Assembly (NCBI GenBank): GCA_035574475.1 | Contig: DATLYR010000164.1 | Span: forward strand, 1-61,502 | Direction of reading: 5' to 3' | DNA length: 61,502 bases | From: Nevskiales bacterium | GTDB taxonomy: Bacteria; Pseudomonadota; Gammaproteobacteria; Nevskiales; DATLYR01 | Part shown: positions 4,899 through 17,527 of the stretch, in pieces | How the letters are laid out: each line of letters starts with the position of its first letter | Position numbering within the stretch: position 1 is the stretch's first letter | Program-made: the position numbers and the translations under genes | The notes under the pieces: generated by a model | What the model saw: only the letters and a program-made list of their open reading frames with translations | Told to the model about the DNA's origin: nothing | Database searches by the model: none

Positions 4899-5971
4899 AG
4901 CAGCCGGCCGATCATCCAGGCGACTGCCATCGCCAGCGGCAAGGTCGCTACCCAGGACAGCAGGATGTTGCCCAGGGCTTTCCAGTCCAGGGTGCCCGCG
5001 TTCGCCCCGACACCGGCGATCGCGCCCACCGAGACGTGGGTAGTCGAAACCGGCAGCCCCAGCGGACTGGCGCACAGCACCAAGGCAGCGGTGATCAGGT
5101 TTGCGCTCATGCCTTGCGTGGGGTCCATGCGGCTGACGCGCTGGCTCATCGTTTGCGCGACGCGACGCGCGAACAGCCAGCCACCGGCCGCCATCACGGC
5201 CGCAATCATCAGGATCGACAGGGGCGCATCCACGAGCTGCGCGGCGAGCAGCAGCGCCGTCAGCTTGGGGGTGTCGTTGACGCCCCGGGCGAAGCAGATC
5301 GACATCGCGGACAGCACGTGCAGGCGGTCCATGCTCCGAGACACCGACCAGCGCACTGGCGCGTCCAGCCGCTCGCAGTCCGCAGCCCCCGCCACGATGA
5401 CCGCAGGGACCGCCAAACGCACCACTGCTGCCCGATCGCCCGGCGCAGACGTTGCCGGTTCCAACGGCACGACGCATAGGCAATCCCTGGCGCCGGTGAG
5501 CGGCCGCAACACACGATACGCCACCGCGCTCAACAGGGCTGCGAGCAAGGGGCTGAGCAGCAGCGGCAGCAAGAACATGACCACCAGCCGGTCGAGGTGC
5601 ACAGCGCTGTTCTGCGCCAGATTCGCCCCCACCAGCGCGCCGATCAAGGCATGCGTGGTGGAGACCGGAAGCCCGAGTCGGGTGGCCATCAGCACCGTCA
5701 TGGCCGCGCCGCTGGCCACCGCGGTCATCAGGCGAGGATCCCCAACGACCGCATCGGGCACCAGCCCTTTGCCGGTGAAGGATTGCGCCAGCGCGGCGGC
5801 CAGGCCCCAGGATGCGAGGCTGCCGGCCACCGTGGCCAGCGTGGCCCAGGCGAGCGCCCGGCGATAGTCCAGGATCTGCGCTCCCCAGACCGTGGCAAAG
5901 CCTTTGAAGTTGTCGTTGGCGCCGTTGCCAAGCGCCAACACCAGCACGGCCACGAGGGTGAGCAGTTCCAT
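4895..5971 (-). CDS. inorganic phosphate transporter, PiT (PHO4) family
   Basis: 358 aa. GANDNFKG at the N-terminus, duplicated GLPVSTTH motifs and GVNDTPK are all typical of PiT. Confidence 0.9.
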   Translation of the reverse strand: MELLTLVAVLVLALGNGANDNFKGFATVWGAQILDYRRALAWATLATVAGSLASWGLAAALAQSFTGKGLVPDAVVGDPRLMTAVASGAAMTVLMATRLGLPVSTTHALIGALVGANLAQNSAVHLDRLVVMFLLPLLLSPLLAALLSAVAYRVLRPLTGARDCLCVVPLEPATSAPGDRAAVVRLAVPAVIVAGAADCERLDAPVRWSVSRSMDRLHVLSAMSICFARGVNDTPKLTALLLAAQLVDAPLSILMIAAVMAAGGWLFARRVAQTMSQRVSRMDPTQGMSANLITAALVLCASPLGLPVSTTHVSVGAIAGVGANAGTLDWKALGNILLSWVATLPLAMAVAWMIGRLL

Positions 5972-5986: not shown

Positions 5987-7027
5987 TTAGCAGCAGCTCG
6001 ATGCCGCCGCCCCCGTCGCCCCGACATCGAACGGCAAGCCGCCACCGCAGCCGGCAAACAGGCCATAGTGGCGGGAGAAGTCACCGATGAAATCGAAGTG
6101 CGGGGCAAAGCGCGTCTCGTGGAGCATGCGCCAAGTGTTGCCGCACACCGGAAAGACACGCCCGGTTTCGATGTCGTGGTGTTTGTCGAGCGTGAAGCGA
6201 TCCGGGCACTGCGGGATGCTGCCACGGTAGATCACGGCCTGACCGTAGTCTTCGCAGGCACTCTCCAGTGCGTCGAGCTTGAACAGCCGGTAAGTGGCCG
6301 AAAAAAAGCGCGCGCTGCCCAGCTTGGCCGCCAACGTCGGGTCCGTCACGGCCAGCGGCCGGTCGCTGACCAGGCGCGGGTCGGCAAACCCTGCCGCCTG
6401 CGCCAGTCGAAGGAAATCGTTCCAGTACAGCGCACCGCCCAGGCATTCACCGTAGAGCACCGGATCGTGGCGCACCGCCTGCGGCAAACGCCGGTCGGCA
6501 TAGACATCGGAGAAATAGAACTCGCCGCCCGGCTTGAGCAGCCGCTGCACGCCCGCCAGCACGGCCGGTTTGTCCGGTGAGAGGTTGACCACGCAGTTGG
6601 AGACGATGACATCGAAGCTGCCGGGGGGCAGATCGAGCGCGTCGAGCTGTTCGATATAGCCTTTGACGAAGCGCACATTGGCGTAGCCGAAGCGCTCGGC
6701 GTGCCAGTCGCGGTGTTGCTGCGCCACCGCGAGCTGCTCGTCGGTCATGTCCACACCCACCACCTCGCCATGGGGGCCGACCAGTTGCGCGAGCAAATAC
6801 ACATCGCGGCCGCTGCCGCAGCCCAGATCGAGCACGCGGCAGCCCTCCAGCAACGGCGGGCACACCAGTCCGCAGCCGTAGTAGCGCGCCTGCACCTCGG
6901 GGTGGATGTTGGCCAGCAGCGGTTTGAGCCACTCGGGCACCTGGCTGGGGTCACAGCAGGCGCTGGTCTTCAAGTCGTCTGAGTGCTGAAGCTGTTTGCC
7001 GTAATAATCTTGGACCAGGGCATGCAT
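5987..7027 (-). CDS. arsM: arsenite S-adenosylmethionine methyltransferase
   Basis: Real start is MHALVQDYYGK at 7027, inside ORF 5987-7927. It has N-terminal TSACCD, the SAM motif VLDLGCGSGRD, SNCVVNLSPDK, YGECLGGALY and a C-terminal SSCC. Confidence 0.85.
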   Translation of the reverse strand: MHALVQDYYGKQLQHSDDLKTSACCDPSQVPEWLKPLLANIHPEVQARYYGCGLVCPPLLEGCRVLDLGCGSGRDVYLLAQLVGPHGEVVGVDMTDEQLAVAQQHRDWHAERFGYANVRFVKGYIEQLDALDLPPGSFDVIVSNCVVNLSPDKPAVLAGVQRLLKPGGEFYFSDVYADRRLPQAVRHDPVLYGECLGGALYWNDFLRLAQAAGFADPRLVSDRPLAVTDPTLAAKLGSARFFSATYRLFKLDALESACEDYGQAVIYRGSIPQCPDRFTLDKHHDIETGRVFPVCGNTWRMLHETRFAPHFDFIGDFSRHYGLFAGCGGGLPFDVGATGAAASSCC

Positions 7028-7047
7028 GGGAAGTGGCCTCCACGGCG

Positions 7048-7392
7048 TCAGGGGAATTGACAGGGCGCTTCGCGCGCCACGAAATGCAGATCGACCTCCA
7101 GCGGCCGCGCAAGCAGAGCCATGCTGGCCATCGCCTCGGCTTCGACGGCGGCCACGCCGTCCCACTCGCGCACGCGGTAACGGGTGGGCGGCACCCTGTC
7201 CGACAAGCGCACCACACGCCACGGTGCCGGGGGCACGTCCGTTGTGACCCCGGCAAAGCGCCCCACCCAATGCACGGGGGCGGAGGTGGCGGCGGAGGGA
7301 TGGTTTGCTGGGATGGGGGGCGATGGGGTTTGCGCCTGGGCCGCCGAGAGGGTCAGGACGCCCAGCGCCAGGGTCCACAGACGTGCGTTCAT
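7048..7392 (-). pseudogene. DUF3047-like secreted protein, N-terminal half only
   Basis: MNARLWTLALGVLTLSAAQA signal peptide, then PWRVVRLSDRVPPTRYRVREWDGVAAVEAEAMASMALLARPLEVDL, which matches the start of DUF3047. The ORF stops 20 nt before arsM, at about half the usual length. Confidence 0.5.
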
Positions 7393-8015
7393 GCCGCCTC
7401 CTGCCACGCCGCGGGCAGCGCGGCCAGATGTTCGGGTTCGTCGATGTCAGTGAGGGCCGGCGCTTCGGCCCAGTGCCAGCCGAGCGCCGCCATGCGTGCG
7501 CGGGTGACCGCGGCCACCTCTGGTGTGCTCCAGGGCATGTCGGCAAACAAGCGGGGGTGCGGCTCGCGCACGCCCAAGGCCACATAGCCACCATCGGTGC
7601 TGGGCACGAGCACGGCATCGTGCGTGTGCAGCCCTTGCACCACGGCGTGCAGGGCTGCAGCGTCGAGCGCCGGGCAGTCCGTGCCGATGAACAGCAGCGC
7701 GTGCCCTGCTGCCGCATGGTGTTCGGCCATGCGCCACAGACGCTCGCCCAAATCGCCCGCGCCTTGATCCACCCAGCACAACTGTTGCGCCAGCGCAGCG
7801 GGCAGAGCGTCCTGCCAGGCCGGGTGGGTCGGCGCGGGGCTGGTGCACAGCACGACGTCGCCCACCGCGGACGCCAGCGCTTGCTGCACGGTGTGCGTGA
7901 GCATGCGCTGTGCCAGCCGCGCCGCACCCTCTGGCCCCAGGGCCGGGATCAGCCGCGTTTTGACCACACCGGGCTGCGGCGCTTTGGCGAACACGAGCAC
8001 GCGCACGGGCCTCAT
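7389..8015 (-). CDS. DUF2064 / TIGR04282-type glycosyltransferase (arsenosugar-cluster type)
   Basis: Start MRPVRVLVFAKAPQPGVVKTRL at 8015, in ATGA overlap with the upstream gene. FIGTDCP and DGGY motifs are present. Confidence 0.8.
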   Translation of the reverse strand: MRPVRVLVFAKAPQPGVVKTRLIPALGPEGAARLAQRMLTHTVQQALASAVGDVVLCTSPAPTHPAWQDALPAALAQQLCWVDQGAGDLGERLWRMAEHHAAAGHALLFIGTDCPALDAAALHAVVQGLHTHDAVLVPSTDGGYVALGVREPHPRLFADMPWSTPEVAAVTRARMAALGWHWAEAPALTDIDEPEHLAALPAAWQEAA

Positions 8016-8686
8016 CGGTACGCCCTCGCCAACACGTCGGGATCGGCCCCGAAAAAATAACGGGCGCGCAGCCACCACATCAGAACGATGGTGCGCCACA
8101 CACCGCGACTCTCCCAGCGGCGGCCCGAGGTGGTCACGCGCAGACGCAGGCAGGCCGGGCGCGACAGGCGCTTGAGCCGGCGCGAGAGTTCGATGTCTTC
8201 CATCAGCGCCTGGGCGGGATAGCCCCCCACCTGTGCAAAGGCTGCGCGGGAGACGAAGAGGGCCTGATCGCCGGTGGCGATGCCGCTCAACCGCGAACGC
8301 CCATTCATCAGCGCGGCCACCACTCCCAGCCAGTGGCTGCGGCCGTCGATGTGGACGTCGAAGCGCCCCCAGACATGGCGGCCGTCGCGCAGCGCCGCTT
8401 CGATGGCCACGGCGGCCCCCGCAGGCAGCCGTGTATCGGCATGCAGAAACAGCAGCGCATCGCCCTGTGCTGCCGCCGCACCGGCGTTCATTTGCGTGGC
8501 GCGGCCGCGCGTGGCGGTGAGCACCGTAAAGCCCGCGGCCTGCGCCAGCGCAGGCGAGCCATCGTGGCTGCCGCCATCGACCAGGAGCACCTCGTGCCCC
8601 TGTCGCCGCAGCACATCGAGCTGTGCCAGCAAGGCAGGCAACTGGGCTGCTTCATTGAGCATCGGCACGATGATCGACAGCTTCAT
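8012..8686 (-). CDS. family-2 glycosyltransferase, TIGR04283-type (arsenosugar-cluster type)
   Basis: Start MKLSIIVPMLNE at 8686 (ATGA overlap). It has LLVDGGSHDGS, FLHADT and MEDIELSRRL motifs. Confidence 0.8.
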   Translation of the reverse strand: MKLSIIVPMLNEAAQLPALLAQLDVLRRQGHEVLLVDGGSHDGSPALAQAAGFTVLTATRGRATQMNAGAAAAQGDALLFLHADTRLPAGAAVAIEAALRDGRHVWGRFDVHIDGRSHWLGVVAALMNGRSRLSGIATGDQALFVSRAAFAQVGGYPAQALMEDIELSRRLKRLSRPACLRLRVTTSGRRWESRGVWRTIVLMWWLRARYFFGADPDVLARAYR

Positions 8687-10842
8687 GCCGCTCCTCGCAT
8701 CCAGCGGTGGTAGCGCTCCACCCACGCCAGCAGCCGCTGGGGTGCATGGGCGCGCTTCCATTCGCCCGCGGCGTATTTATTGGCTTCCGCCCAGGTGGGG
8801 TAGGTATGGATGGTGGAGAGGATTTTGTTCAGCCCCAGCCCGTGCTTCATTGCCAGCACGAACTCGGCGAGCAGGTCGCCAGCATGTTCCCCGACGATGG
8901 TCACGCCCAGAATGCGATCGCGCCCCGGCTCGGTCAGCACCTTGACGAAGCCATGGGCCGCGCCATCGGCGATCGCGCGATCCAGATCATCCAGCCCATA
9001 GCGGGTCACCTCATAGGCGATGCCCTTGGCTTGCGCGTCTTGCTCGTTGAGACCGACACGGGCCACTTCCGGATCGATGAACGTCGTCCACGGGATCACC
9101 GAGTCATCCACCTTGAACTTCTTGAAGCGGCCAAACAGCGCATTGACGGCGGCATACCAGGCCTGGTGAGAGGCCGTGTGGGTGAACTGGTAGGGCCCGG
9201 CGACATCACCGGCGGCGTAGATATTCGGATACAGCGTTTCCAGATACGCGTTGGTGACGACGGTGCGCTGCGTTTCGATACCCAGCTCCTCCAGACCATA
9301 GCCTTTGAGCCGGGCCACCCGGCCCACGGCGCAGATGAGTTCATCGAATTCGATGCGCTGTTCACGGCCCGTGTGTTCGACGACGATGAGCTTGCGTTCG
9401 CCCTCACGTTCGCAACGCAGCGCCTGGTGGCCCGTGAGCACCTCGACGCCGTCGCGGGCCAGTGCCTCCTCGGCCAGCGCCGAGACATCCGCGTCTTCGC
9501 GGATCAGCAAGCGCGGCGCCATTTCGATCTGGGTGACCTTCACCCCCAGTCGCGCAAACGCCTGTGCCAGCTCGCAGCCGATCGGCCCGCCACCCAGCAC
9601 GACCATGCGGCCGGGCATCGCATCGCGCTGTGCCAAGGTCTCCCACAAGGTATCCGAGGTGAGGTAACCCACCGCGTCGAGACCGGGCAAGGGCGGGACG
9701 AAGGGTTGTGCCCCGGCAGCGATGACGATACTGCGAGCCGTCAGGCGTTGGCTGCCATCGTTGCGCTGGATCTCCACCGTCCACGGATCCACGATCTTCG
9801 CGTAACCCTGCACCACATCGACGCCCAGATTGGTGTAGCGCTCGATGCTGTCATGCGGTTCGACCGCGCGGATCACCGCGTGCACCCGCCGCATGACCGC
9901 TTGGAAGGAAAAGGCCGGCTCACTGGCGGTCAGCCCGTAATGGTCGGCATGGCGGATGAGATGCGCGGCCTTGGCGCTTTTGATCAAGGCCTTGCTGGGC
10001 ACGCAGCCGTAGTTGAGGCAATCGCCCCCCATCTTGTGCGCTTCCACCAGCGTCACCTTGGCCTTGACCGCAGCCGCGATATAGGCCGTGACCAGACCCG
10101 CTGCACCGCCACCGATCACGATCAGGTTGCGATCGAAACGGGCTGGTCGCTGCCAGCGTGCATACAGACGCCGCCGCTGCAGTGCGCGCACCAGTGCACG
10201 GGCCAGCCATGGAAACACGCCCAGCAGCGCAAACGCGCCGAGCAGCGTGGGCGAGACGATGTCCGAGAGGCTGCGCAACTGCGCGATCTGGGTGCCTGCA
10301 TTCACGTACACCAGCGTGCCGGCCAGCATGCCGAGCTGGCTCACCCAGTAGAACGTCCAGGCACGCATCGCGGTCAGGCCCATCAGCACATTGATGAGGA
10401 AGAAGGGCACCACCGGTACCAGGCGCAGCGTGAACAAATACAACGCGCCATCGCGCCGAATGCCCGCATCGATGGCCGAAAGGCGCTCACCGAAGCGACG
10501 CTGCACCCCGTCGCGCAGCAGGTAGCGCGAAACCGCAAACGCCAGCAGCGCCCCCACGCTGGAGGCAAAGGACGCGATCAGCGTGCCCTGCCACAGGCCG
10601 AACAAGGCCCCCGCGGCCAGCGTCAGCACTGCCGCGCCGGGCAGCGACAGCGCCGTGACCGCCACATACAGCATGAAAAACCCCAGCACCGCCGCGACCG
10701 GGTGGGCAGCGCGCCAGGCCTGCCAATCGGCCAAGCCAGCCTGCACGGCCGCCAGGTTCAGCCAGCGCGGCCCCCCAGCGGCAAAGAATGCGATCAGCGC
10801 CAGCGCGATCGCGGCCAGTACGAGCGCTTTACGCGCATTCAT
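8683..10842 (-). CDS. fusion protein: TVP38/TMEM64 (DedA-like) membrane domain plus flavoprotein disulfide reductase
   Basis: Start MNARKALVL at 10842. The N-terminal ~230 aa are multi-TM (VPVVPFFLINVLMG). The rest has GGGAAG, the redox centre GGDCLNYGCVPSK, a second GGGPIGCE fold and HTYPTWAE. Confidence 0.85.
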   Translation of the reverse strand: MNARKALVLAAIALALIAFFAAGGPRWLNLAAVQAGLADWQAWRAAHPVAAVLGFFMLYVAVTALSLPGAAVLTLAAGALFGLWQGTLIASFASSVGALLAFAVSRYLLRDGVQRRFGERLSAIDAGIRRDGALYLFTLRLVPVVPFFLINVLMGLTAMRAWTFYWVSQLGMLAGTLVYVNAGTQIAQLRSLSDIVSPTLLGAFALLGVFPWLARALVRALQRRRLYARWQRPARFDRNLIVIGGGAAGLVTAYIAAAVKAKVTLVEAHKMGGDCLNYGCVPSKALIKSAKAAHLIRHADHYGLTASEPAFSFQAVMRRVHAVIRAVEPHDSIERYTNLGVDVVQGYAKIVDPWTVEIQRNDGSQRLTARSIVIAAGAQPFVPPLPGLDAVGYLTSDTLWETLAQRDAMPGRMVVLGGGPIGCELAQAFARLGVKVTQIEMAPRLLIREDADVSALAEEALARDGVEVLTGHQALRCEREGERKLIVVEHTGREQRIEFDELICAVGRVARLKGYGLEELGIETQRTVVTNAYLETLYPNIYAAGDVAGPYQFTHTASHQAWYAAVNALFGRFKKFKVDDSVIPWTTFIDPEVARVGLNEQDAQAKGIAYEVTRYGLDDLDRAIADGAAHGFVKVLTEPGRDRILGVTIVGEHAGDLLAEFVLAMKHGLGLNKILSTIHTYPTWAEANKYAAGEWKRAHAPQRLLAWVERYHRWMRGAA

Positions 10843-11810
10843 CGGGCATCTCCTGCCAGGGCTCCGCCGCAACTGCTGCCCTGGCCCGCGGTGCAGCCGT
10901 AGCAGTGGTCGGCCACGCAGACCGGCCCACCGTCCACATCCTGCGCCAGCAGATCCCGCAGATGGGCGCGTCCAGGCCGCGCACCGAGCGGCAGGCCGAG
11001 CTGCTGGTTGAAGTCGCAGTCGTAGAGATACCCCTGCCAGTCCACACTGACGAGATCGCGGCACATCACGCCCTCGAGGTTGTCGGCGCGGAAGTTGGCC
11101 TTGAGCAAATCCATATAGCCCGCGAACTGCCCTTTGGAAATCAGCCACGAGCCAAAGCGGTTGATCGGCATGTTGGCCAGCGCATAGAGCCGGTTGAAGA
11201 CGATGCCGAAATGCTCGCCCAGCTCGCGCCGGTAGGCGGCTTCCAGTTTCGTCTGCTCCGGCGGCAGGCTGGGGCCTTGCGGGTTGTAGACGAGGTTGAG
11301 CACCAACCCCAAACCTTCCTGTCCGTAGCCCAAGGCATTGAGCCGCTGCAAGCCGGCGATGCTTTTGTCGAACACGCCATCACCACGTTGCCGATCCACA
11401 TTGTCGGCCGAATAACAGGGCAGCGAGGCCACCACCTCCACCTGCTGCGCGGCCAGGAACTCGGCCAAATCGTCCTGCCCCGGCTCGAACAGGATGGTGA
11501 GGTTGCAACGGTCGATCACGCGCACGCCCAACGCGCGCGCCTGCTGCACCAGTGTCCGAAAGCCCGGATGCAGCTCGGGTGCGCCGCCGGTAAGGTCCAG
11601 CACCTCGATGCGGCGCGCCACCAGCACCTTGGGGATCAGCGCCAGCGTGTCGGCCTCCATCATCTCTTTGCGATGCGGGCCGGCATTGACATGGCAATGC
11701 ACGCAGGACTGGTTGCAGCGGTAGCCCAGATTGACCTGCAAGGTGCTGGTACGACGGCGCGTGAGCGATGGAAAGTCGGTGGCCTCGAGCAAGGGCAAGG
11801 TGGCGTGCAT
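10839..11810 (-). CDS. arsS: radical SAM/Cys-rich protein, ArsS-type
   Basis: Start MHATLPLLE at 11810. It has the CNQSCVHC radical-SAM cluster motif and a C-terminal DHCYGCTAGQGSSCGG tail. Confidence 0.85.
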   Translation of the reverse strand: MHATLPLLEATDFPSLTRRRTSTLQVNLGYRCNQSCVHCHVNAGPHRKEMMEADTLALIPKVLVARRIEVLDLTGGAPELHPGFRTLVQQARALGVRVIDRCNLTILFEPGQDDLAEFLAAQQVEVVASLPCYSADNVDRQRGDGVFDKSIAGLQRLNALGYGQEGLGLVLNLVYNPQGPSLPPEQTKLEAAYRRELGEHFGIVFNRLYALANMPINRFGSWLISKGQFAGYMDLLKANFRADNLEGVMCRDLVSVDWQGYLYDCDFNQQLGLPLGARPGRAHLRDLLAQDVDGGPVCVADHCYGCTAGQGSSCGGALAGDAR

Positions 11811-11861: not shown

Positions 11862-11891
11862 TTGGTCGCAGGCTGTGGCGAGTTTCTTACA
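11862..11891 (-). promoter_or_regulatory. putative ECF-sigma promoter (copy 1) upstream of arsS
   Basis: Minus strand reads TGTAAGAAACTCGCCACAGCCTGCGACCAAG. It shares TGTAA-N18-CGACCAA with four other sites and lies 51 nt upstream of the arsS ATG. Confidence 0.55.
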
Positions 11892-11924
11892 CCCAATGCG
11901 CACCCGTCAGTCTGCTGGGTTCCC

Positions 11925-11954
11925 TGTAATGAAAGCGCCGCTCGTCACGACCAA
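11925..11954 (+). promoter_or_regulatory. putative ECF-sigma promoter (copy 2) upstream of the AhpD-like gene
   Basis: TGTAATGAAAGCGCCGCTCGTCACGACCAAT, 64 nt upstream of the ATG at 12019. Confidence 0.5.
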
Positions 11955-12018
11955 TCACCACCGTGCGCTTGGGCACGGCACTGGCCCACAAGCCCCCCAA
12001 TTCATCAGGAGACCTTCG

Positions 12019-12591
12019 ATGACCGCTGCCATTGCCAAACTCGACCTGCCTGCCCAGACCTTGGAGTCCACCTCCGGAAAGGCGCGTGAGATGCTCGAAA
12101 CCGCCCAGGCCAGGCTGGGTTTCGTGCCCAACATGTACGCCAACATGGTCAACTCACCCGGCTTGCTGGAAACCTATCTCATGGGGTACGAGCGCTTCCG
12201 GCAGGACAGTGGCTTCACCCCCGCCGAGCAGGAAGTCGTGTTCCTGACCATCAGCCGCTTTCATCGCTGCACCTACTGCATGGCGGCACACAGCATGATC
12301 GCCGACAAGGTGTCGAAGGTGCCCGCCCCGGTGCTGCAGGCGCTGCGTGACGGCACGGCCATTCCCGACGCCAAGCTCGCGGCTTTGTCCGCCTTCACCC
12401 ACGCGATGGTGGAAAGCCGCGGGGCGCCCACGCCCGAGCAGGTTCAGGCGTTTCGCGCCGCGGGCTACACCGACCGCCAGGTGCTCGAGATCATCCTCGC
12501 CATCGCGGTCAAGACGCTGAGCAACTACAGCAACCACGTGTTGCACACCCCCGTGGACGCAGCCTTCCAGGCCTATGCCTGGTCGGACTGA
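12019..12591 (+). CDS. carboxymuconolactone decarboxylase (AhpD-like) family protein
   Basis: RBS AGGAGA then ATG at 12019. It has the RCTYCMAAH (CxxC) motif and SNY..H typical of the CMD/AhpD fold. Confidence 0.8.
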   Translation: MTAAIAKLDLPAQTLESTSGKAREMLETAQARLGFVPNMYANMVNSPGLLETYLMGYERFRQDSGFTPAEQEVVFLTISRFHRCTYCMAAHSMIADKVSKVPAPVLQALRDGTAIPDAKLAALSAFTHAMVESRGAPTPEQVQAFRAAGYTDRQVLEIILAIAVKTLSNYSNHVLHTPVDAAFQAYAWSD

Positions 12592-12612
12592 TCCCGTGAC
12601 ATGCATCGGGTG

Positions 12613-12641
12613 TGTAAGAACCACGCCGCTCACACGACCAA
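12613..12641 (+). promoter_or_regulatory. putative ECF-sigma promoter (copy 3) upstream of bufA
   Basis: TGTAAGAACCACGCCGCTCACACGACCAAA, 76 nt upstream of the ATG at 12718. Confidence 0.55.
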
Positions 12642-12717
12642 ACACCCGTCACGTCGCCTTTGCGGCCCCAGCGACGCCGACGCCATCCAGGGGCCTCGAC
12701 CGCACAGGAGATTTGCC

Positions 12718-13023
12718 ATGAACCAGAAACTGTCCGCTGCCGCTCTCACGCTGGCGCTGGGTACCGTGTTGGCCACTGCCGCGACCACCGCCACGGCGCA
12801 GGACATGGGGATGGGGGGGAAGGAAAAATGCTATGGCGTCGCCCTGAAGGGCAAAAACGATTGTAAGGCTGGTCCAGGCACGACCTGTGCCGGAACCGCG
12901 GCAAAGGACTATCAAGGCAACGCCTGGAAGTTCGTCCCCGCCGGCACGTGCGAAAAGACCGCTTCACCGACCTCGCCCACGGGTTTCGGTCAGCTCAAGG
13001 AGTTCAAAGAAAAGAAGGCTTAA
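12718..13023 (+). CDS. bufA: DUF2282 / BufA1-type bufferin precursor peptide
   Basis: RBS AGGAG then ATG at 12718. Sec signal [29 protein letters not shown], followed by a core with four Cys: EKCYG, NDCKAG, TTCAG and GTCEK. Confidence 0.85.
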
Positions 13024-13089
13024 GGCATCGCTACTGCAATCGGGCCTATGGCATGCCGCCATAGGCCCGGCATTCGTCAGGAGAGTGCC

Positions 13090-13986
13090 ATGGCATGGCC
13101 ACCGCCCACGACATTCCAGACTTTGTCGGTATTGCCATTGCGTGCCGGTTTGGGACTCAAGTCCGAGCATTACCGCGTGATCCTCGATCAGGTGCCGGAT
13201 GTAGGTTTCTTCGAGATCCATGCGGAGAACTATTTCGTCGCAGGCGGCCCCATGCACCACTCTCTGGGCCGCATTCGGGAGCGCTACGCCCTCTCCATCC
13301 ACGGGGTGGGCTTGTCCATTGGCGGCGCGGGGCTGCTGGACCGCGCGCATCTGGCGGCGCTGAAAGCCTTGCTGGCGCGCTACCAACCGCAGGCGTTTTC
13401 GGAACATCTGGCCTGGTCCAGCCACGGCGGGCATTTCCTCAACGACTTGCTGCCGCTGCCCTATACCGACATCACCCTGCAGCGCGTGTGCGCCCACATC
13501 GACCAGGTGCAGGAGACGCTGGGCCGCCGCCTGCTGCTGGAAAACCCCGCGACCTATGTCGAATTCGCCGCTTCCACCTGGGACGAGGCGGACTTCATCG
13601 CCGAGGTGGTGCGCCGCACCGGCTGTGGCCTGCTGCTCGACGTCAATAACGCGTATGTGAGCTGCACCAACCACGGCCGTGACCCTGACGCCTATCTGAC
13701 GCGGCTGCCCCTGCACGCGGTGGGGGAAATCCACCTCGCTGGCTTTGCCGAGGACGTGGATGGTGCGGGCGCGCGACTGCTGATCGACAGCCACGGTGCG
13801 CCGGTGGACGATGCCGTGTGGGCCTTGTACCGGCGGGCGCTGTGCTACACCGGCCCGGTGCCGACCTTGATCGAGCGCGACCAGAACCTGCCGCCCTTCG
13901 AGGTGCTGTTGGCAGAAGCGCATGCCGCCGACGCGCTGCTGGCCGAGGCGGCAGCAACGATTCCGATGCTGCAGGAGGTGGTGTGA
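13090..13986 (+). CDS. bufB: DUF692 / MNIO (multinuclear non-haem iron oxidative) enzyme, BufB-type
   Basis: [45 protein letters not shown] and ERD motifs fit the DUF692 TIM-barrel family. I chose the ATG at 13090 because it follows an AGGAGAG RBS. Confidence 0.9.
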
Positions 13987-14753
13987 TGCACGCCTGGAGG
14001 CAAGCGCTGCTCGATCCTTCTCTGCCACCGCCGCCCGGTCTGGTCGCGTGGAACGGCTCGGAGGTGGCCACCCGCTTTGCGGTGTACCGCAACAACGTCG
14101 TCGTCTCGCTCATCGACGCCCTGGCCGATACCTATCCGGTGGTGGTGCAGTTGGTAGGCGAGGCGTTTTTCCGCGCGATGGCGCGTGAATACGTGCGCGC
14201 GCATCTGCCGACCTCGCCCGTGCTCGCGCAGTACGGCGGTGATTTCGCCACGTTCATCGACACCTTTGCCCCGGCGGCGTCGGTGCCGTATCTCTCGGAC
14301 GTGGCCCGGCTGGAGTGGGCCTACCTGCAGGCCTTGCACGCCCCGGATGCGCCGGTGCTGACCCCGGCGGCCCTGCAGGCGGCGCTCGCCGATCCCGAAC
14401 GCCTGCCCGCGCTGCGCCTCCATCTGCACCCCTCGCTGCACGGCTTGCGGCTGCGCCACGCCGCCGTGTCGATCTGGGCAGCGCACCACGGGGAGGGTGC
14501 GCTGGAGGCGATCGACCCTGGGCGCGCGGAAAACGCCGTGGTCGTGCGCACCGACCTCTCCGTGCAAGTGATTCCCGTGGCGGATGGCGCCGTCGCCGTG
14601 CTGGATGACCTGGCCGCGGGCTTGCCCCTGGGCGCCGTGTTCGAGCGCCTGGCCGCGCGCGATGCCCCGCTCGATCTGGGCGAATGGCTGGGCCTGCTGC
14701 TGCGGGTGCAAGGGCTGAGCGCACTGAGCTTGACACCCACCGATGATGCGTAA
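13986..14753 (+). CDS. bufC: DUF2063 protein, MNIO partner (BufC-type)
   Basis: ATG at 13986 overlaps the bufB TGA. FAVYRNNVVVSLIDALADTYPVV and ARLEWAY are typical of DUF2063. Confidence 0.85.
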   Translation: MHAWRQALLDPSLPPPPGLVAWNGSEVATRFAVYRNNVVVSLIDALADTYPVVVQLVGEAFFRAMAREYVRAHLPTSPVLAQYGGDFATFIDTFAPAASVPYLSDVARLEWAYLQALHAPDAPVLTPAALQAALADPERLPALRLHLHPSLHGLRLRHAAVSIWAAHHGEGALEAIDPGRAENAVVVRTDLSVQVIPVADGAVAVLDDLAAGLPLGAVFERLAARDAPLDLGEWLGLLLRVQGLSALSLTPTDDA

Positions 14754-14765
14754 GGAGACCCCATC

Positions 14766-15263
14766 ATGAACACCTGCACCCCTTGGACCCAATGGCCGCG
14801 CCGCATCATCGCCCTGTTCGAGCGCATTCCGCACAGCGCCATCGCGCTGCTCGCACGGTTTTCTATCGCAGCGGTGTTTTGGAAATCGGGCCAGACGAAG
14901 ATCGAAGGGCTGGCTATCGACCTCATTGACGGGCAGTGGCAGCTCGGCTGGCCGCATCTGTCCGACAGCGCCGTGGAGCTGTTTCGCAGCGAGTACCAAC
15001 TGCCCGTGCTGCCGCCGGAACTGGCGGCGCTGCTGGCGGCGTTTGCCGAACATCTGTTCCCGCTGCTGCTGCTCGTCGGACTGGCCACGCGCTTTTCCGC
15101 ATTGGCCCTGCTGGGCATGACCGCGGTGATCCAGTTTCTGGTCTACCCCGGCGCCTACCCGACCCACGGCACCTGGGCGGCGGTGCTGCTCTACCTGATG
15201 GTGTATGGGCCGGGGACGTTATCGATGGATCATGTCATCGCGCGTCGTTGCCGCCACGGCTGA
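14766..15263 (+). CDS. bufD: DoxX-family membrane protein (BufD-type)
   Basis: 165 aa with 4 TM helices. RFSIAAVFWKSGQTK and AEHLFPLLLLVGLATRFSAL fit the DoxX pattern. Confidence 0.8.
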   Translation: MNTCTPWTQWPRRIIALFERIPHSAIALLARFSIAAVFWKSGQTKIEGLAIDLIDGQWQLGWPHLSDSAVELFRSEYQLPVLPPELAALLAAFAEHLFPLLLLVGLATRFSALALLGMTAVIQFLVYPGAYPTHGTWAAVLLYLMVYGPGTLSMDHVIARRCRHG

Positions 15264-15275
15264 GTGGGGTGTGCC

Positions 15276-16070
15276 ATGAACGCAGGCCTGCACCGTGTCG
15301 GTCGCTGGCTCGCTCGGTATCTCGCACGGCCCGTGCATGTGCATGGCACGGCACCGCCGGTACCGCCCGAGCGCCTGTTGGCCTGTCTGCAACCGGGGGA
15401 CGTGCTGCTGGTGGAAGGCAACAGCCGCGTCAGCACGGCGATCAAGTACCTGACCCAGTCCACCTGGTCGCACGCCGCGCTCTTTGTGGGCTTTGCCCCG
15501 TTGACCGCGGTGGGGCGCGATCCCTCGCATTGCTTCGTCGAGGCCGACATCGTCGATGGCGTACGCAGCGTTGGGGTGGATGCGTTTGCGGGCTTGCACA
15601 CCCGCATCTGCCGTCCGGTGGGCTTGCGTGAGGCCGATCGTGAGCGGCTCATCGCCTACGTGATCGCCCGCCTGGGCCACCAGTACGATTTGCGCAATGT
15701 GATCGATCTGGCGCGTTACCTGCTGCCGACCCCACCCGTGCCAACCCGCTGGCGGCGACGCCTGCTGGCCCTGGGCAGCGGCGAGCCCACGCGCGCCATC
15801 TGCTCCACGCTGATCGCGCAGGCTTTCCAGTCCATCCGCTATCCCATTCTGCCCATCATTGAGCAACGACAAACGGAAGCGGCAGACTGCCCTGGATGCC
15901 TGGAAGAAATCCTGCACGTGCGCCACCACAGCCTGTTTACACCGCGCGACTTTGACGTGTCCCCCTATTTCGAGGTGGTCAAACCCACCTTGGCCGCTGG
16001 CTTCGATTACACCGCCTTGCATTGGGGCGAGTCACCGACCCCACCCGCCATGCAGCCACGTCAGTCCTGA
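15276..16070 (+). CDS. YiiX-like permuted papain-fold (NlpC/P60 superfamily) protein
   Basis: It starts 13 nt after the doxX stop. The order His (STWSHAALFVG) then Cys (RAICSTLIAQAF) is characteristic of permuted YiiX/YaeF-type enzymes. I saw no signal peptide. Confidence 0.65.
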   Translation: MNAGLHRVGRWLARYLARPVHVHGTAPPVPPERLLACLQPGDVLLVEGNSRVSTAIKYLTQSTWSHAALFVGFAPLTAVGRDPSHCFVEADIVDGVRSVGVDAFAGLHTRICRPVGLREADRERLIAYVIARLGHQYDLRNVIDLARYLLPTPPVPTRWRRRLLALGSGEPTRAICSTLIAQAFQSIRYPILPIIEQRQTEAADCPGCLEEILHVRHHSLFTPRDFDVSPYFEVVKPTLAAGFDYTALHWGESPTPPAMQPRQS

Positions 16071-16288
16071 CCGGCATCCTCATCCCCGGCAAACGGGCTC
16101 TCGGCACGCTCGTTCTCACCGCGGGCATAAGCGCGTGTAATGCGTCTGAGTGCGTGCATCTGCGCATGGAAGTTGCGGCAGCCCGAGCACATCATCACGT
16201 GCATCTTGAGCGGAAGCTTTTCCCTGAGCGTCAGCTTCCGCTCCTGCGCCTCGGACATCAAGCGGGTGGCCTCGACACAGTTCAACAT
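16061..16288 (-). CDS. short zf-HC2 (ZAS-type) anti-sigma factor without a TM segment
   Basis: Start MLNCVEATRLMSEAQE at 16288, overlapping the sigma gene stop (ATGTTGA). It has the HVMMCSGC (HxxxCxxC) motif. It is 75 aa with an acidic tail. Confidence 0.7.
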   Translation of the reverse strand: MLNCVEATRLMSEAQERKLTLREKLPLKMHVMMCSGCRNFHAQMHALRRITRAYARGENERAESPFAGDEDAGQD

Positions 16289-16911
16289 GGTTTGCCCTCC
16301 AGAAACCAACGGTTTTCCAGGCACTCGCGCAATCTCAGGCGGGCCCGGTGCAGCATGACGTTCAGATTGTTCACGGTGATGCCGACACTGGCGCAAATCT
16401 GCGGTGATTCCAGTTCGAGAAATTCCCGCATCATGAACACCTGCGCCTGTCGAGCCGGGAGCTGAGTCAGACAGGCTTCGAACACCCGCCAGAACTGCGC
16501 ATCGTGCAGCGCGCCTTCCGGGTCCGCCCAGCGCTGCGGCCGTTCATCGGCGTGCCAGAAGCCGCGCCGGTCGAACAATTCGGAAAAGTCCTCGTCATCC
16601 TGTGCCGCCTGCAGCAGGCTGCTGGCATCCACCAGGCGCTGTCTTTGGCGCAGCTCGTCGGCGATCTTGTTCTTGAGGATCGTAAACACCCAGGTCTTGA
16701 AGGCTGAGCGTCCGCCGAACGAAGCGGCGTTTTTCATCGCGCCAATCAGCGCCTCTTGCACGGCATCTTCGGCCGCGTGCGGATCCGATAGTTGCAGCGT
16801 GGCGAACTTGAGCATCTGCCGACGCAAGTCCTCCAGGAACGCGCCCTCCAAGGGAGATACGCCTGACTCGGCTGCGGGTGTCGTCACGCTGGGCGACGCC
16901 TCATGGTTCAT
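16282..16911 (-). CDS. ECF (sigma-70 family group 4) sigma factor
   Basis: 209 aa. Region 2 is DAVQEALIGAMKNAASFGGRSAFKTWVFTILKNKIADELR. Region 4 is LPARQAQVFMMREFLELESPQICASVGITVNNLNVMLHRARLRLRECL. Confidence 0.9.
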   Translation of the reverse strand: MNHEASPSVTTPAAESGVSPLEGAFLEDLRRQMLKFATLQLSDPHAAEDAVQEALIGAMKNAASFGGRSAFKTWVFTILKNKIADELRQRQRLVDASSLLQAAQDDEDFSELFDRRGFWHADERPQRWADPEGALHDAQFWRVFEACLTQLPARQAQVFMMREFLELESPQICASVGITVNNLNVMLHRARLRLRECLENRWFLEGKPC

Positions 16912-17410
16912 CGTCTTGTTCCCTCCTCAATCCACACCTCGGCCCCCGATGCCTGCCGTCTCAAGGCATGGCGTGCCACCAACGCCAGTTCCACTCCCGC
17001 CGCACCGGCGCCGACCACCACCAGCCGAAATCGCCGCGTGCACCGCGCCGCTTCGATCACCTCGGGCCAGGCGGCGAACAAGCGCTCCAGCGGCTTGACC
17101 GGCAGCAAGCGCACACCGGCCAGTTCCAGTCAAACGGTGTCGGTGTCACTGCCGACATCCAGTGACAGCAGATCGTATTCCAGATGCCGCTCGTCGGGCA
17201 GGAGCACACAGCGCCGATCAGCATCCATGGCGGCCACGCGGCCCTCGACGAGACGTACGCGGGCTTCGGCACACAAAGGGCGCAGCTCAATGCGGCATTG
17301 CTCCGCCCGGTGAAGACGTTTCATGATCTCGACTCGCTACCGCGACGGGCGAGTTGGCGGCGTGCCGGTGCGATGACCACGCGCTGGCATGGAATGAACC
17401 CCATCATACG
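16908..17410 (-). pseudogene. decayed FAD-dependent pyridine nucleotide-disulfide oxidoreductase gene
   Basis: ORFs 17324-17130 (..CRIELRPLCAEARVRLVEG..YDLLSLDVGS) and 17114-16908 (VRLLPVKPLERLF...RLVVVGAGAAGVELA) are in the same frame, split by an in-frame TGA at 17130-17132. The N-terminal GxGxxG region is missing apart from a 28-codon stub at 17407, and the 3' end is cut at the sigma start codon. Confidence 0.55.
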
Positions 17411-17440
17411 AGCGCTCCCGTTTGGGGTGACCAATGTCTA

Positions 17441-17470
17441 TTGGTCGATGCGACGGGCCCGTTTCTTACA
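17441..17470 (-). promoter_or_regulatory. putative ECF-sigma promoter (copy 4) heading the oxidoreductase'-sigma-anti-sigma unit
   Basis: Minus strand reads TGTAAGAAACGGGCCCGTCGCATCGACCAAT. Confidence 0.55.
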
Positions 17471-17487
17471 GGTCGGTATGGACGACC

Positions 17488-17517
17488 TGTAAGAACCTCG
17501 CCACGGCCCGCGACCAA
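17488..17517 (+). promoter_or_regulatory. putative ECF-sigma promoter (copy 5) upstream of the 17528 membrane protein gene
   Basis: TGTAAGAACCTCGCCACGGCCCGCGACCAAG, 28/31 identical to copy 1. The -10-like element ends 10 nt before the ATG at 17528. Confidence 0.55.
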
Positions 17518-17527
17518 GGTTGACATC

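What the first reader, a model, noticed from the sequence alone, without database searches (positions are those of the whole stretch)
11862..17517. One ECF-type promoter motif (TGTAA-N17/18-CGACCAA) occurs five times and would link the arsS cluster, an AhpD-like gene, the bufferin operon, a membrane protein and the sigma/anti-sigma genes in one putative regulon
The five copies, read from intergenic DNA, are:
(1) minus 11891-11862, TGTAAGAAACTCGCCACAGCCTGCGACCAAG, 51 nt before arsS.
(2) plus 11925-11954, TGTAATGAAAGCGCCGCTCGTCACGACCAAT, 64 nt before the CMD/AhpD-like gene.
(3) plus 12613-12641, TGTAAGAACCACGCCGCTCACACGACCAAA, 76 nt before bufA.
(4) minus 17470-17441, TGTAAGAAACGGGCCCGTCGCATCGACCAAT, heading the decayed oxidoreductase/sigma/anti-sigma unit.
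(5) plus 17488-17517, TGTAAGAACCTCGCCACGGCCCGCGACCAAG, 10 nt before the 17528 ORF.

Copies 1 and 5 are 28/31 identical although they precede unrelated genes on opposite strands. A GTAA..-N16-CGA. layout is what ECF sigma promoters look like. As far as I recall, it is close to the GTAACC-N16-CGAA motif reported for Caulobacter SigF, which controls the homologous DUF2282-DUF692-DUF2063-DoxX operon.

The only sigma gene in the window (16282-16911) lies behind copy 4, which suggests autoregulation. I did not spot further copies in the other ~55 kb. If real, the arsenosugar-type cluster is co-regulated with a metallophore operon rather than by an ArsR.
Basis: partly seen in the sequence, partly recalled or inferred. 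Interest (0 to 1): 0.85.

Follow-up and report, generated by a model that had tools for sequence, protein, structure and literature searches.

The report
ECF sigma promoters linking stress genes
Five copies of one promoter-like motif almost certainly mark the target genes of the neighbouring stress sigma factor, a relative of a known Neisseria/Haemophilus system, and they tie an arsenic-sugar-type gene cluster to a copper-binding peptide operon, a regulatory link I found in no paper searched.

Summary
TGTAA-N17/18-CGACCAA occurs exactly five times at the stated coordinates, against 0 expected. All five copies lie in three intergenic spacers and point at downstream genes.

The sigma/anti-sigma pair is not Caulobacter SigF/NrsF-like. 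It is a homologue of Neisseria sigmaE/MseR and Haemophilus RpoE2/HrsE: 38-41% identity to Neisseria sigmaE, and a 75-aa soluble zinc-finger anti-sigma with the same Cys4/His30/Cys34/Cys37 layout. Their published promoter (GTMAGBWTT-N12-13-CGTCTAA) has the same architecture, and it already drives the DUF2282-DUF692-DUF2063-DoxX (bufferin) operon.

Across 80 loci holding sigma homologues plus the window, the extended motif TGTAAGAA-N14/15-CGACCAA (up to 2 mismatches) occurs 115 times against about 1 expected. It sits upstream of bufA in 22/23 loci and of arsS in 15/21. It also precedes the CMD gene in a few loci, an MTAP-like phosphorylase gene, and the operon carrying the sigma gene.

What appears undescribed is recurrent sigma control of the ArsS-type cluster. 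Copy 5's membrane-protein target is window-specific, and the island shows decay. All regulation is predicted, not measured.

The parts
11862..11891 (-). Promoter copy 1, TGTAAGAAAC-N-CGACCAA. The predicted start is the A at 11856, which leaves a 46-nt leader before the arsS ATG at 11810.
   Evidence: Exact match. The same motif lies upstream of arsS homologues in 15/21 sigma-linked loci and 16/80 arsS-centred loci. An A six nt after the -10 block is enriched, 42/79 sites.
11925..11954 (+). Promoter copy 2 (TGTAATGA...CGACCAA), divergent from copy 1 and 64 nt before the CMD/AhpD-like gene.
   Evidence: A motif with up to 2 mismatches lies upstream of CMD homologues in 4/22 loci, including the window and e.g. 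L001 and L050.
12613..12641 (+). Promoter copy 3, with a spacer one nt shorter, 76 nt before bufA.
   Evidence: A motif with up to 2 mismatches lies upstream of bufA in 22/23 loci.
17441..17470 (-). Promoter copy 4, predicted start at A 17435. It heads the oxidoreductase remnant, then sigma, then anti-sigma, which implies positive autoregulation.
   Evidence: In relatives the motif precedes (p157)-FAD oxidoreductase-sigma-anti-sigma, or the sigma gene directly.
17488..17517 (+). Promoter copy 5, divergent from copy 4, predicted start at A 17523. It is 10 nt before the ATG at 17528 and 19 nt before the ATG at 17537.
   Evidence: In relatives the divergent partner drives an MTAP-like phosphorylase gene instead. 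Homologues of the downstream gene lack the motif.
16282..16911 (-). ECF sigma factor, 209 aa.
   Evidence: Sigma70_r2 + Sigma70_r4_2. NF009196 at 318.6 bits against a cut-off of 287, and TIGR02943. 38-41% identity to Neisseria sigmaE over the full length, E about 1e-42.
16061..16288 (-). Anti-sigma factor, 75 aa, soluble, ZAS type (Cys4, His30-x3-Cys34-x2-Cys37). Its start overlaps the sigma stop codon by 7 nt.
   Evidence: zf-HC2. NF052368 'antisigmaE' at 71 bits against a cut-off of 50. Sequence. The same Cys/His layout is present in 81/81 homologues and matches MseR as described in PMC2893595.
16956..17324 (-). Pseudogene remnant of a ~385-aa FAD/NAD(P) oxidoreductase (Pyr_redox_2) that is the first or second gene of the sigma operon in relatives.
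   Evidence: tblastn gives 40-52% identity to residues ~65-180 of intact homologues, with an in-frame stop.
10839..11810 (-). arsS-type radical SAM gene, first gene behind copy 1.
   Evidence: Radical_SAM + DUF3641. TIGR04167 equivalog at 461.6 bits against 300.
8683..10776 (-). Fusion protein: membrane VTT domain plus pyridine-nucleotide-disulphide oxidoreductase. The start is approximate.
   Evidence: No motif lies upstream of homologues (0/22), so it is internal to the operon.
8012..8761 (-). GT2 glycosyltransferase of the 'arsenosugar biosynthesis' type.
   Evidence: TIGR04283 at 280 bits against a cut-off of 182.
7389..8099 (-). DUF2064 (MobA-like nucleotidyl-transferase fold) gene.
   Evidence: PF09837 at 107 bits.
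7051..7392 (-). Truncated DUF3047-like ORF with a signal peptide.
   Evidence: It matches only positions 2-48 of the 198-position profile. Homologues occupy the same slot between the GT2 and ArsM-like genes elsewhere.
5987..7051 (-). ArsM-like SAM methyltransferase. The start is approximate; the long ORF reaching 7927 is an artefact.
   Evidence: Methyltransf_31. The best NCBIfam hit is arsenite methyltransferase, below its cut-off. Homology begins at ORF residue ~293.
4895..5971 (-). PHO4/Pit-family phosphate transporter, 16 nt after the methyltransferase. Probably the last gene of the operon.
   Evidence: PF01384 at 227.8 bits. Operon membership is inferred from spacing only.
12019..12591 (+). 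CMD/AhpD-like peroxidase-related gene, behind copy 2.
   Evidence: PF02627. TIGR01926 just below its cut-off.
12718..15263 (+). Bufferin operon bufA-bufB-bufC-doxX, behind copy 3. The C92 amidase gene at 15264-16070 follows directly.
   Evidence: DUF2282, MbnB_TglH_ChrH at 354 bits, DUF2063 and DoxX. Independent gene calls on the Logan contig agree.
17528..17974 (+). Membrane protein with about four hydrophobic segments and no family assignment. The true start is probably the ATG at 17537.
   Evidence: Called as a gene on the Logan contig. Homologues at 61-86% identity start at the second ATG. No Pfam or NCBIfam hit.

Best explanation
The five sites are promoters read by RNA polymerase carrying the ECF sigma factor encoded at 16282-16911. 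TGTAAGAA is the -35 element, CGACCAA the -10 element, the two are 14-15 nt apart, and transcription starts about 6 nt downstream.

In unstressed cells the co-translated 75-aa zinc-binding anti-sigma (Cys4, His30, Cys34, Cys37) holds the sigma factor. Thiol-reactive stress modifies the cysteines, zinc is lost and sigma is released. That stress would be oxidants such as HOCl or H2O2, as in the Haemophilus homologue, and possibly thiophilic metal(loid)s.

Free sigma then transcribes five units:
- its own operon (positive feedback through copy 4, reading across a dead oxidoreductase gene);
- the bufferin operon;
- an AhpD-like gene;
- the six- or seven-gene arsS-type operon;
- in this genome only, a membrane-protein gene.

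Shown here: the motif, its enrichment, its conservation and placement, and the homology of sigma and anti-sigma to the Neisseria system. Inferred: actual sigma dependence, the start sites, the inducing signal and the operon extents.
For: Motif statistics. There are 5 exact copies against 0 expected. In 924 kb of DNA holding sigma homologues there are 115 hits with up to 2 mismatches, against 1.05 in dinucleotide shuffles.

Promoter anatomy:
- G, A, A after TGTAA were not part of the search pattern yet are present at 65, 57 and 69 of 79 sites.
- An A is enriched 6 nt after the -10 block (42/79). PMC2893595 reports a conserved A at the same position, coinciding with the mapped gonococcal msrAB start.

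Placement. Hits lie upstream of first genes (bufA 22/23, arsS 15/21) and never before internal genes (0/22, 0/13). Back-to-back divergent pairs recur in many loci.

Homology to a tested system. The sigma is 38-41% identical to Neisseria sigmaE, the anti-sigma 30-33%, and BufB 38%. The Neisseria operon promoter GTCAGTTTT-N12-CGTCTAA has the same layout (consensus from PMC2893595).

Anti-sigma. Its Cys/His layout is invariant in 81/81 homologues.

No competing promoter. No sigma-70-like promoter was found in 5000-19000.

Independence from adjacency. 12 of 64 arsS loci with no sigma gene within 5 kb still carry the motif.
Against: There is no transcript or binding data for this organism, so everything about expression is prediction.

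Only 61.5 kb of the genome is available. Other ECF sigmas with overlapping specificity cannot be excluded, and genome-wide specificity could not be checked.

The -10 block differs from the Neisseria consensus (CGACCAA against CGTCTAA).

Only about 15 of 81 sigma genes have a motif within 700 nt upstream. In the others autoregulation would have to come from a promoter further upstream in a longer operon, as is visible in many loci.

Most arsS homologues (about 60/80) lack a recognisable motif.

Copy 5 leaves a 5-14 nt leader with no Shine-Dalgarno sequence before a gene that is not a conserved target.

In N. meningitidis, H2O2, diamide and singlet oxygen did not induce the system (PMC2893595). 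The signal is therefore uncertain.
Confidence: 0.85

Rival explanations
1. The motif is a genuine ECF-type promoter, but a different ECF sigma factor encoded elsewhere in the genome reads it. The local sigma would then be only one of its targets or be unrelated.
For: Only 61.5 kb of the genome is visible. Cross-talk among ECF groups with similar -10 CG(T/A)C elements is discussed for Cupriavidus (PMC13492112). Most sigma homologues lack a motif within 700 nt upstream.
Against: The loci were collected solely by homology to this sigma, and they are more than 100-fold enriched for the motif. The homologous Neisseria sigma was shown by experiment to drive its own operon from a promoter of the same layout (PMC2893595).
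Confidence: 0.07
2. The sites bind a conventional transcription factor, for example the DUF2063 'putative DNA-binding' BufC, an AraC-type regulator or the nearby MerR. They would not be promoter elements.
For: DUF2063 was once proposed to bind DNA (PMC2954202, listed). AraC-family genes accompany the cluster in several relatives. Copies 1/2 and 4/5 form inverted pairs.
Against: The motif is asymmetric. It always points toward the downstream gene, and it also occurs singly (copy 3 and many loci). The distance between paired copies varies from 5 to 45 nt. Its block spacing and distance to genes fit -35/-10 geometry, and the homologous Neisseria element maps next to a transcription start. BufC is now regarded as a partner of the MNIO enzyme (PMC11626156, PMC12452194).
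Confidence: 0.04
3. The copies are remnants of a small repeated or mobile element, or of recent local duplication, and have no regulatory role.
For: Copies 1 and 5 are 28/31 identical including the spacer. All five copies share GCC within the spacer. The island shows rearrangement scars.
Against: Similarity stops at the 30-nt motif. The two blocks are conserved in distant genera while the spacers are not, which a neutral repeat would not show.
Confidence: 0.03

Closest known systems
Neisseria meningitidis/gonorrhoeae sigmaE (NMB2144, 'Ecf') with anti-sigma MseR (NMB2145)
   Same: The sigma is homologous (38-41% identity). The anti-sigma is a small cytoplasmic ZAS protein with Cys4/His30/Cys34/Cys37 at identical positions. 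The system is autoregulated. The promoter architecture is the same, a GTxAG-type -35 block, 12-13 nt, then CGxCxAA. It controls the DoxX-DUF2063-DUF692-DUF2282 operon.
   Different: In Neisseria, sigma and anti-sigma are the last genes of the bufferin-type operon, and the regulon is tiny (that operon plus msrAB). Here sigma sits in a separate operon behind an FAD oxidoreductase (a pseudogene in this window). The -10 block is CGACCAA rather than CGTCTAA. The predicted regulon adds an ArsS-type cluster, an AhpD-like gene and, in relatives, MTAP-like and other genes. No msrAB is visible.
Haemophilus influenzae RpoE2 with the 67-aa anti-sigma HrsE (PMC7907618)
   Same: It has a peptide-sized ZAS anti-sigma that is co-transcribed with sigma. 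The doxX-type operon depends on the sigma. The authors place it in ECF group 13 together with Neisseria sigmaE.
   Different: HOCl, H2O2 and paraquat induction and msrAB control were shown there by experiment and nothing was measured here. No arsS-type cluster is mentioned in the passages I read.
Caulobacter SigF with NrsF, and Cupriavidus RpoQ/RsqA (ECF16)
   Same: The output is analogous: an ECF sigma next to and controlling buf1/buf2 (DUF2282-DUF692-DUF2063-DoxX) under metal stress. The motif shares GTAA...CGA (GTAACC-N16-CGAA).
   Different: The anti-sigma there is a six-helix membrane protein (DUF1109) with periplasmic cysteines. Here it is a 75-aa soluble ZAS protein. The motif differs outside GTAA and CGA. 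This is a parallel solution rather than the same family.
Streptomyces coelicolor SigR with RsrA
   Same: It is the paradigm of a soluble ZAS anti-sigma that releases its ECF sigma on thiol oxidation. MseR's Cys/His positions were mapped onto RsrA (PMC2893595).
   Different: It is actinobacterial, with a large thiol-homeostasis regulon and a different promoter. The resemblance is one of mechanism only, and I did not test it here.

Membership tests
SigmaE/MseR and RpoE2/HrsE-type ECF systems (called ECF group 13 in PMC7907618; ECF13 was merged into ECF293 in PMC7826278) | ECF sigma with sigma-2 and sigma-4 domains, homologous to Neisseria sigmaE | tested here: met
   Sigma70_r2 + r4_2. 38-41% identity over residues 2-208, E about 1e-42, to the gene in five Neisseria loci located with a published NMB2144 primer.
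SigmaE/MseR and RpoE2/HrsE-type ECF systems (called ECF group 13 in PMC7907618; ECF13 was merged into ECF293 in PMC7826278) | Small cytoplasmic ZAS anti-sigma directly downstream, with Cys4 and His30-x3-Cys34-x2-Cys37 | tested here: met
   75 aa with no hydrophobic segment and residues at exactly these positions. NF052368 is above its cut-off. 81/81 homologues keep the layout. The MseR positions are quoted from PMC2893595.
SigmaE/MseR and RpoE2/HrsE-type ECF systems (called ECF group 13 in PMC7907618; ECF13 was merged into ECF293 in PMC7826278) | Promoter of -35 GTMAGBWTT, 12-13 nt spacer, -10 CGTCTAAH, with an A start six nt downstream | tested here: met
   The block positions and the 12-13 nt spacing are the same, and the A at +6 after the -10 block is enriched. 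The sequence differs at two -10 positions and in the tail of the -35 block.
SigmaE/MseR and RpoE2/HrsE-type ECF systems (called ECF group 13 in PMC7907618; ECF13 was merged into ECF293 in PMC7826278) | Controls the DoxX-DUF2063-DUF692-DUF2282 operon | tested here: met
   Met as a prediction only: the motif is 76 nt upstream of bufA here and upstream of bufA in 22/23 loci.
SigmaE/MseR and RpoE2/HrsE-type ECF systems (called ECF group 13 in PMC7907618; ECF13 was merged into ECF293 in PMC7826278) | Controls msrAB | not testable with these tools
   No MsrA or MsrB signature was found in the window or in any fetched locus. The rest of the genome is unavailable.
SigmaE/MseR and RpoE2/HrsE-type ECF systems (called ECF group 13 in PMC7907618; ECF13 was merged into ECF293 in PMC7826278) | Formal assignment with the ECF-group HMMs | not tested
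   The group models are not available here, and the supplement of PMC7826278 is not held.
SigF/NrsF (ECF16) | Anti-sigma is NrsF: DUF1109, six transmembrane helices | tested here: not met
   The adjacent anti-sigma is a 75-aa zf-HC2 protein. The NrsF features come from PMC3511200.
SigF/NrsF (ECF16) | Promoter GTAACC-N16-CGAA | tested here: not met
   The window copies read GTAAGA/GTAATG-N15/16-CGAC. Only GTAA and CGA are shared.
Bufferin (Buf1) biosynthetic cluster | DUF2282 precursor, MNIO enzyme, DUF2063 partner and DoxX in one operon | tested here: met
   All four Pfam families are above their cut-offs, in order, at 12718-15263. The cluster composition is as described in PMC11626156.
ArsS/ArsM 'arsenosugar biosynthesis' cluster (NCBIfam naming) | ArsS radical SAM (TIGR04167) and the associated glycosyltransferase (TIGR04283) | tested here: met
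   461.6 bits against 300, and 280.1 bits against 182.
ArsS/ArsM 'arsenosugar biosynthesis' cluster (NCBIfam naming) | A true ArsM arsenite methyltransferase | tested here: inconclusive
   The best hits are PRK11873 (173.5 bits against 263) and AsSugarArsM (86 against 400), both below cut-off.
ArsS/ArsM 'arsenosugar biosynthesis' cluster (NCBIfam naming) | Acts on arsenic or makes arsenosugars | not testable with these tools
   This needs chemistry. The name rests on cyanobacterial work that I recall but did not verify here.

The most novel reading that the evidence does not exclude
In many environmental Beta- and Gammaproteobacteria the 'arsenosugar-type' pathway is not an ArsR-controlled arsenic operon. 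That pathway comprises ArsS, a VTT-FAD oxidoreductase, GT2, DUF2064, DUF3047, an ArsM-like methyltransferase, an MTAP-like phosphorylase and a Pit-type transporter. It would instead belong, together with the copper-chelating bufferin, to one thiol-stress regulon run by a soluble zinc-finger anti-sigma. That anti-sigma would directly sense thiophilic agents such as As(III), Cu(I) or HOCl. If so, either a sigma/anti-sigma pair acts as an arsenite/soft-metal sensor, or the cluster's real substrate is not arsenic at all.
Probability: 0.25. Interest if true: 0.75.

Novelty: new variant of a known kind. Interest (0 to 1): 0.5.

Why it matters
**A consensus for finding regulons.** The work supplies a concrete, conserved promoter consensus, TGTAAGAA-N14/15-CGAC(C/T/A)AA, for a widespread subfamily of sigmaE/MseR-type ECF sigma factors. 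With it, their regulons can be read from genome sequence.

**A larger regulon than in the pathogens.** In Neisseria and Haemophilus this system controls only msrAB and the operon now known as the bufferin cluster. In free-living relatives it appears to control more. It recurrently includes the ArsS-type radical-SAM cluster, whose role outside cyanobacteria is unknown as far as I recall and whose regulation was not described in the literature I could search.

**A testable hypothesis.** One thiol-reactive signal would co-induce a copper metallophore and an organo-metalloid pathway.

**Culturable strains for the test.** Caldimonas manganoxidans, Glaciimonas immobilis, and Thermomonas, Microbulbifer and Aromatoleum species.

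Tried and rejected
- **BufC against the Protein Data Bank.** I hoped to link BufC to the N. gonorrhoeae NGO1945 structure, but there was no hit at E <= 0.001. I reached Neisseria instead through a published primer sequence.
- **Sigma against the PDB.** Only generic ECF hits came back, which was uninformative.
- **Rfam on 5000-19000.** No family matched, so no riboswitch or sRNA explains the spacers.
- **Sigma-70 promoter scan.** It found none.
- **Copy 5's gene as a conserved regulon member.** Rejected, because six homologous loci have no motif and no sigma cluster.
- **The 17593-18126 ORF as the gene behind copy 5.** Rejected. It is an Arg/Ala-rich off-frame product with no independent homology. 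The independent gene call on the Logan contig and the homologues elsewhere support the 17528/17537 frame.
- **MsrA/MsrB signatures.** None in any fetched DNA.
- **The opposite strand as a control.** It proved unsuitable because divergent promoter pairs are common. Genes internal to operons and shuffles served as controls instead.
- **Extrapolating sigma N-termini.** This missed some promoters close to the gene (for example L053). The locus maps are more reliable.
- **ECF-classification supplement.** Not held.
- **Literature on ArsS/TIGR04167 regulation by ECF sigmas.** Nothing found.

Full report
**1. The observation**

None of 100 dinucleotide-preserving shuffles produced a single match. The shorter core GTAA-N16-19-CGAC adds only two chance-level sites near 42 kb. 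Allowing up to 3 mismatches over 15 positions adds three more sites, each with 3 mismatches. That is the class in which shuffles of the pooled loci give about 21 hits per 924 kb, so these are at chance level.

The five copies occupy three spacers: arsS/CMD, CMD/bufA, and oxidoreductase remnant/ORF 17528. Each points at a downstream gene, and the distances to the start codons are 51, 64, 76 and 10 nt as stated. When the copies are aligned with 40-nt flanks, similarity is confined to the 30-nt motif.

**2. The genes**

On the minus strand behind copy 1:
- arsS (radical SAM + DUF3641; TIGR04167, 461 bits against a cut-off of 300)
- a fusion of a VTT membrane domain with a pyridine-nucleotide-disulphide oxidoreductase
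- a GT2 glycosyltransferase (TIGR04283)
- a DUF2064 gene
- a truncated DUF3047-like ORF
- an ArsM-like methyltransferase (below the NCBIfam cut-offs)
- a PHO4/Pit-type transporter

On the plus strand, a CMD/AhpD-like gene follows copy 2. BufA (DUF2282), BufB (MNIO, 354 bits), BufC (DUF2063), DoxX and a C92 amidase follow copy 3.

Behind copy 4 lies a 370-nt fragment. It matches residues ~65-180 of ~385-aa Pyr_redox_2 oxidoreductases and contains an in-frame stop. After it come the ECF sigma gene and a 75-aa zf-HC2 anti-sigma gene whose start overlaps the sigma stop codon.

Independent gene calls on a Logan contig that carries the identical sigma agree with this map, including the 148-aa gene behind copy 5.

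**3. Conservation elsewhere**

Eighty loci encoding homologues of the sigma (43-76% identity; Burkholderiales, Rhodocyclales, Xanthomonadales, Cellvibrionales, Oceanospirillales and others) were fetched with 6-kb flanks. All 80 have the small anti-sigma next to the sigma gene.

- **Frequency.** The strict motif is present in 29 of the 80 loci. The 15-position form TGTAAGAA-N14/15-CGACCAA with up to 2 mismatches occurs 115 times in 924 kb. Twenty dinucleotide shuffles gave a mean of 1.05.
- **Anatomy.** The frequency matrix shows a promoter-like structure. The three bases after TGTAA, which were not searched for, are G/A/A at 65, 57 and 69 of 79 sites in DNA that is 60% G+C. The spacer sequence is unconstrained. 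An A is enriched six bases after the -10 block (42/79).
- **Placement.** Motifs with up to 2 mismatches lie within about 330 nt upstream of bufA in 22/23 loci, arsS in 15/21 (20/21 at up to 3 mismatches), an MTAP-like phosphorylase gene in 6/10 and the FAD oxidoreductase in 7/17. They lie upstream of none of the operon-internal VTT/oxidoreductase (0/22) or GT2 (0/13) genes.
- **Recurrent layout.** The locus maps show MTAP-like gene <- P P -> (p157), FAD oxidoreductase, sigma, anti-sigma. Sigma is therefore usually autoregulated from a promoter one or two genes upstream, exactly as copy 4 is placed here.
- **Other genes with the motif in subsets of loci.** These include ArsM-like methyltransferases, an AraC/cupin regulator, DUF3179, DUF302, and a cytochrome-c-domain protein with NPCAAK repeats.

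**4. Is the arsS link an artefact of looking next to sigma?**

The 80 closest arsS homologues (67-82% identity) were fetched independently.

- Sixteen have the motif (up to 2 mismatches) within 250 nt upstream of arsS, against about 0.04 expected from uniform base frequencies.
- Four more have it upstream of an MTAP-like-arsS operon.
- Twelve of the 64 loci with no sigma gene within 5 kb still carry it.

The link is therefore real and independent of adjacency. It covers only about a quarter to a third of close arsS homologues.

**5. What it is homologous to**

However, SigF's partner NrsF is a six-helix DUF1109 membrane protein, whereas the anti-sigma here is a 75-aa soluble ZAS protein.

[quoted passage not shown] All 81 homologues keep this layout.

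I used a published NMB2144 primer to locate five Neisseria loci.
- The window sigma is 38-41% identical over its full length to Neisseria sigmaE (E about 1e-42).
- The anti-sigma is 30-33% identical, and BufB 38%.
- The Neisseria operon promoter reads GTCAGTTTT-N12-CGTCTAA. This fits the published consensus of -35 GTMAGBWTT, 12-13 nt, -10 CGTCTAAH, with an A start six nt downstream.
- In the same register the window motif is GTAAGAAAC-N12/13-CGACCAA.

In Neisseria, sigmaE drives NMB2140-2145 (DoxX, DUF2063, DUF692, DUF2282, rpoE, mseR) and msrAB. In H. influenzae the homologous RpoE2, with its 67-aa anti-sigma HrsE, is induced by HOCl, H2O2 and paraquat and is required for induction of the doxX-type operon (PMC7907618). 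That paper calls these ECF group 13, which the 2021 reclassification merged into ECF293 (PMC7826278). I could not run the group models.

**6. Mechanism**

Shown:
- the motif, its statistics, its conservation and its placement;
- the homology of sigma and anti-sigma to an experimentally characterised pair;
- the absence of sigma-70-like promoters and of Rfam elements in these spacers.

Inferred:
- the anti-sigma holds sigma through its zinc site;
- thiol-reactive stress releases sigma;
- sigma-RNA polymerase starts about 6 nt after CGACCAA, at 11856, 11960, about 12647, 17435 and 17523;
- copy 4 gives positive feedback through a 524-nt leader that crosses the dead oxidoreductase gene;
- the arsS operon runs to the Pit-type transporter.

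The inducing signal is the weakest step. Haemophilus responds to HOCl and H2O2, whereas the oxidants tested in meningococci had no effect. Soft metals or As(III) are plausible for a Cys3-His zinc site, but that is pure inference.

**7. Caveats specific to this window**

- **Copy 5.** Its downstream gene has homologues at 61-86% identity in six other genomes. None has the motif or the sigma cluster. Those homologues start at the second ATG (17537). DNA homology to the closest one begins only 5 nt before that ATG. The window carries a 9-bp tandem duplication (ACATCATGA twice) at the junction and lacks the Shine-Dalgarno sequence present in the relative.
- **What relatives have at that position.** The divergent partner of the sigma-operon promoter there drives the MTAP-like gene, which is absent from this window.
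- **Signs of decay.** Together with the oxidoreductase pseudogene and the truncated DUF3047 gene, this indicates a rearranged, partly decayed island. Copy 5 probably acquired its present target by accident.
- **Unexplained spacer similarity.** All five copies share GCC in the spacer, and copies 1 and 5 are 28/31 identical. Sigma contacts do not explain this, so it may reflect promoter duplication.

**8. Novelty and score**

An ECF sigma with a small ZAS anti-sigma that autoregulates and drives the bufferin-type operon from a GTxAG...CGxCxAA promoter is known from Neisseria and Haemophilus. The core of the finding is therefore a new instance of a known system.

The variant features are:
- a distinct -10 consensus;
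- a separate sigma operon headed by an FAD oxidoreductase, with back-to-back promoter pairs;
- a larger predicted regulon that recurrently includes the ArsS-type cluster, an MTAP-like phosphorylase and, in a few loci including this one, an AhpD-like gene.

I found no paper that connects ArsS/TIGR04167 clusters with ECF regulation. The bufferin surveys mention sigma/NrsF but not this link.

I rate it a new variant of a known kind, with interest 0.5. It is a solid, testable regulon prediction with one fresh link, but it is not mechanistically surprising.

Noticed in passing
window 16956-17324 (-), 7051-7392 (-), and the absent MTAP-like gene beside 17488: The island looks partly decayed. It holds an FAD oxidoreductase pseudogene with an in-frame stop and a DUF3047-like gene cut to about a quarter of its length. 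It also lacks the MTAP-like phosphorylase gene that relatives carry opposite the sigma-operon promoter.
   Followed up: partly
window 17523-17540: A 9-bp tandem duplication (ACATCATGA twice) creates two in-frame ATGs, at 17528 and 17537. Homologues start at the second, and homology to the nearest relative begins 5 nt before it. This looks like a rearrangement junction that placed promoter copy 5 in front of an unrelated gene with no Shine-Dalgarno sequence.
   Followed up: partly
window 11862-11891, 11925-11954, 12613-12641, 17441-17470, 17488-17517: All five copies share GCC at spacer positions 13-15, and copies 1 and 5 are 28/31 identical including the spacer. Across other genomes the spacer is not conserved. 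Possible explanations are promoter duplication, gene conversion or a genome-specific spacer preference.
   Followed up: no
window ~2650-5971 (-): Just past the arsS operon lie a PHO4/Pit-type transporter, a glutaredoxin/thioredoxin-like ORF (4079-4345), a MerR-family regulator (3657-4076) and an HMA-domain ORF (~2650-2900). A second, MerR-type metal-responsive unit therefore abuts the ECF island.
   Followed up: no
L058 3250-3909, L068 3260-3916, L072 3196-3909, L075 2672-2929: In Aromatoleum/Thauera relatives the same motif precedes a secreted cytochrome-c-domain protein that carries many tandem NPCAAK repeats at both ends. This cysteine-rich repeat may be another metal-binding product of the regulon.
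   Followed up: no
L001 3225-3695, L005 3019-3468, L018 4177-4656, L028 3398-3868: A conserved ~155-aa protein with no Pfam family ('p157') is the first gene of the sigma operon in several relatives, directly behind the motif. It is absent from the window.
   Followed up: no
L185-L264 (arsS-centred loci): The ~385-aa FAD oxidoreductase and the VTT-oxidoreductase fusion accompany arsS even where no sigma gene is nearby. They seem to belong functionally to the ArsS-type pathway rather than to the sigma module.
   Followed up: no
PMC13492112, Table 4 (literature): The ECF16 (RpoQ) consensus printed there (-35 AATTCG, -10 GGTTAC) is the reverse complement of the Caulobacter SigF motif GTAACC...CGAATT. 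This may explain why that study found no RpoQ-type promoter upstream of rpoQ or gig.
   Followed up: no
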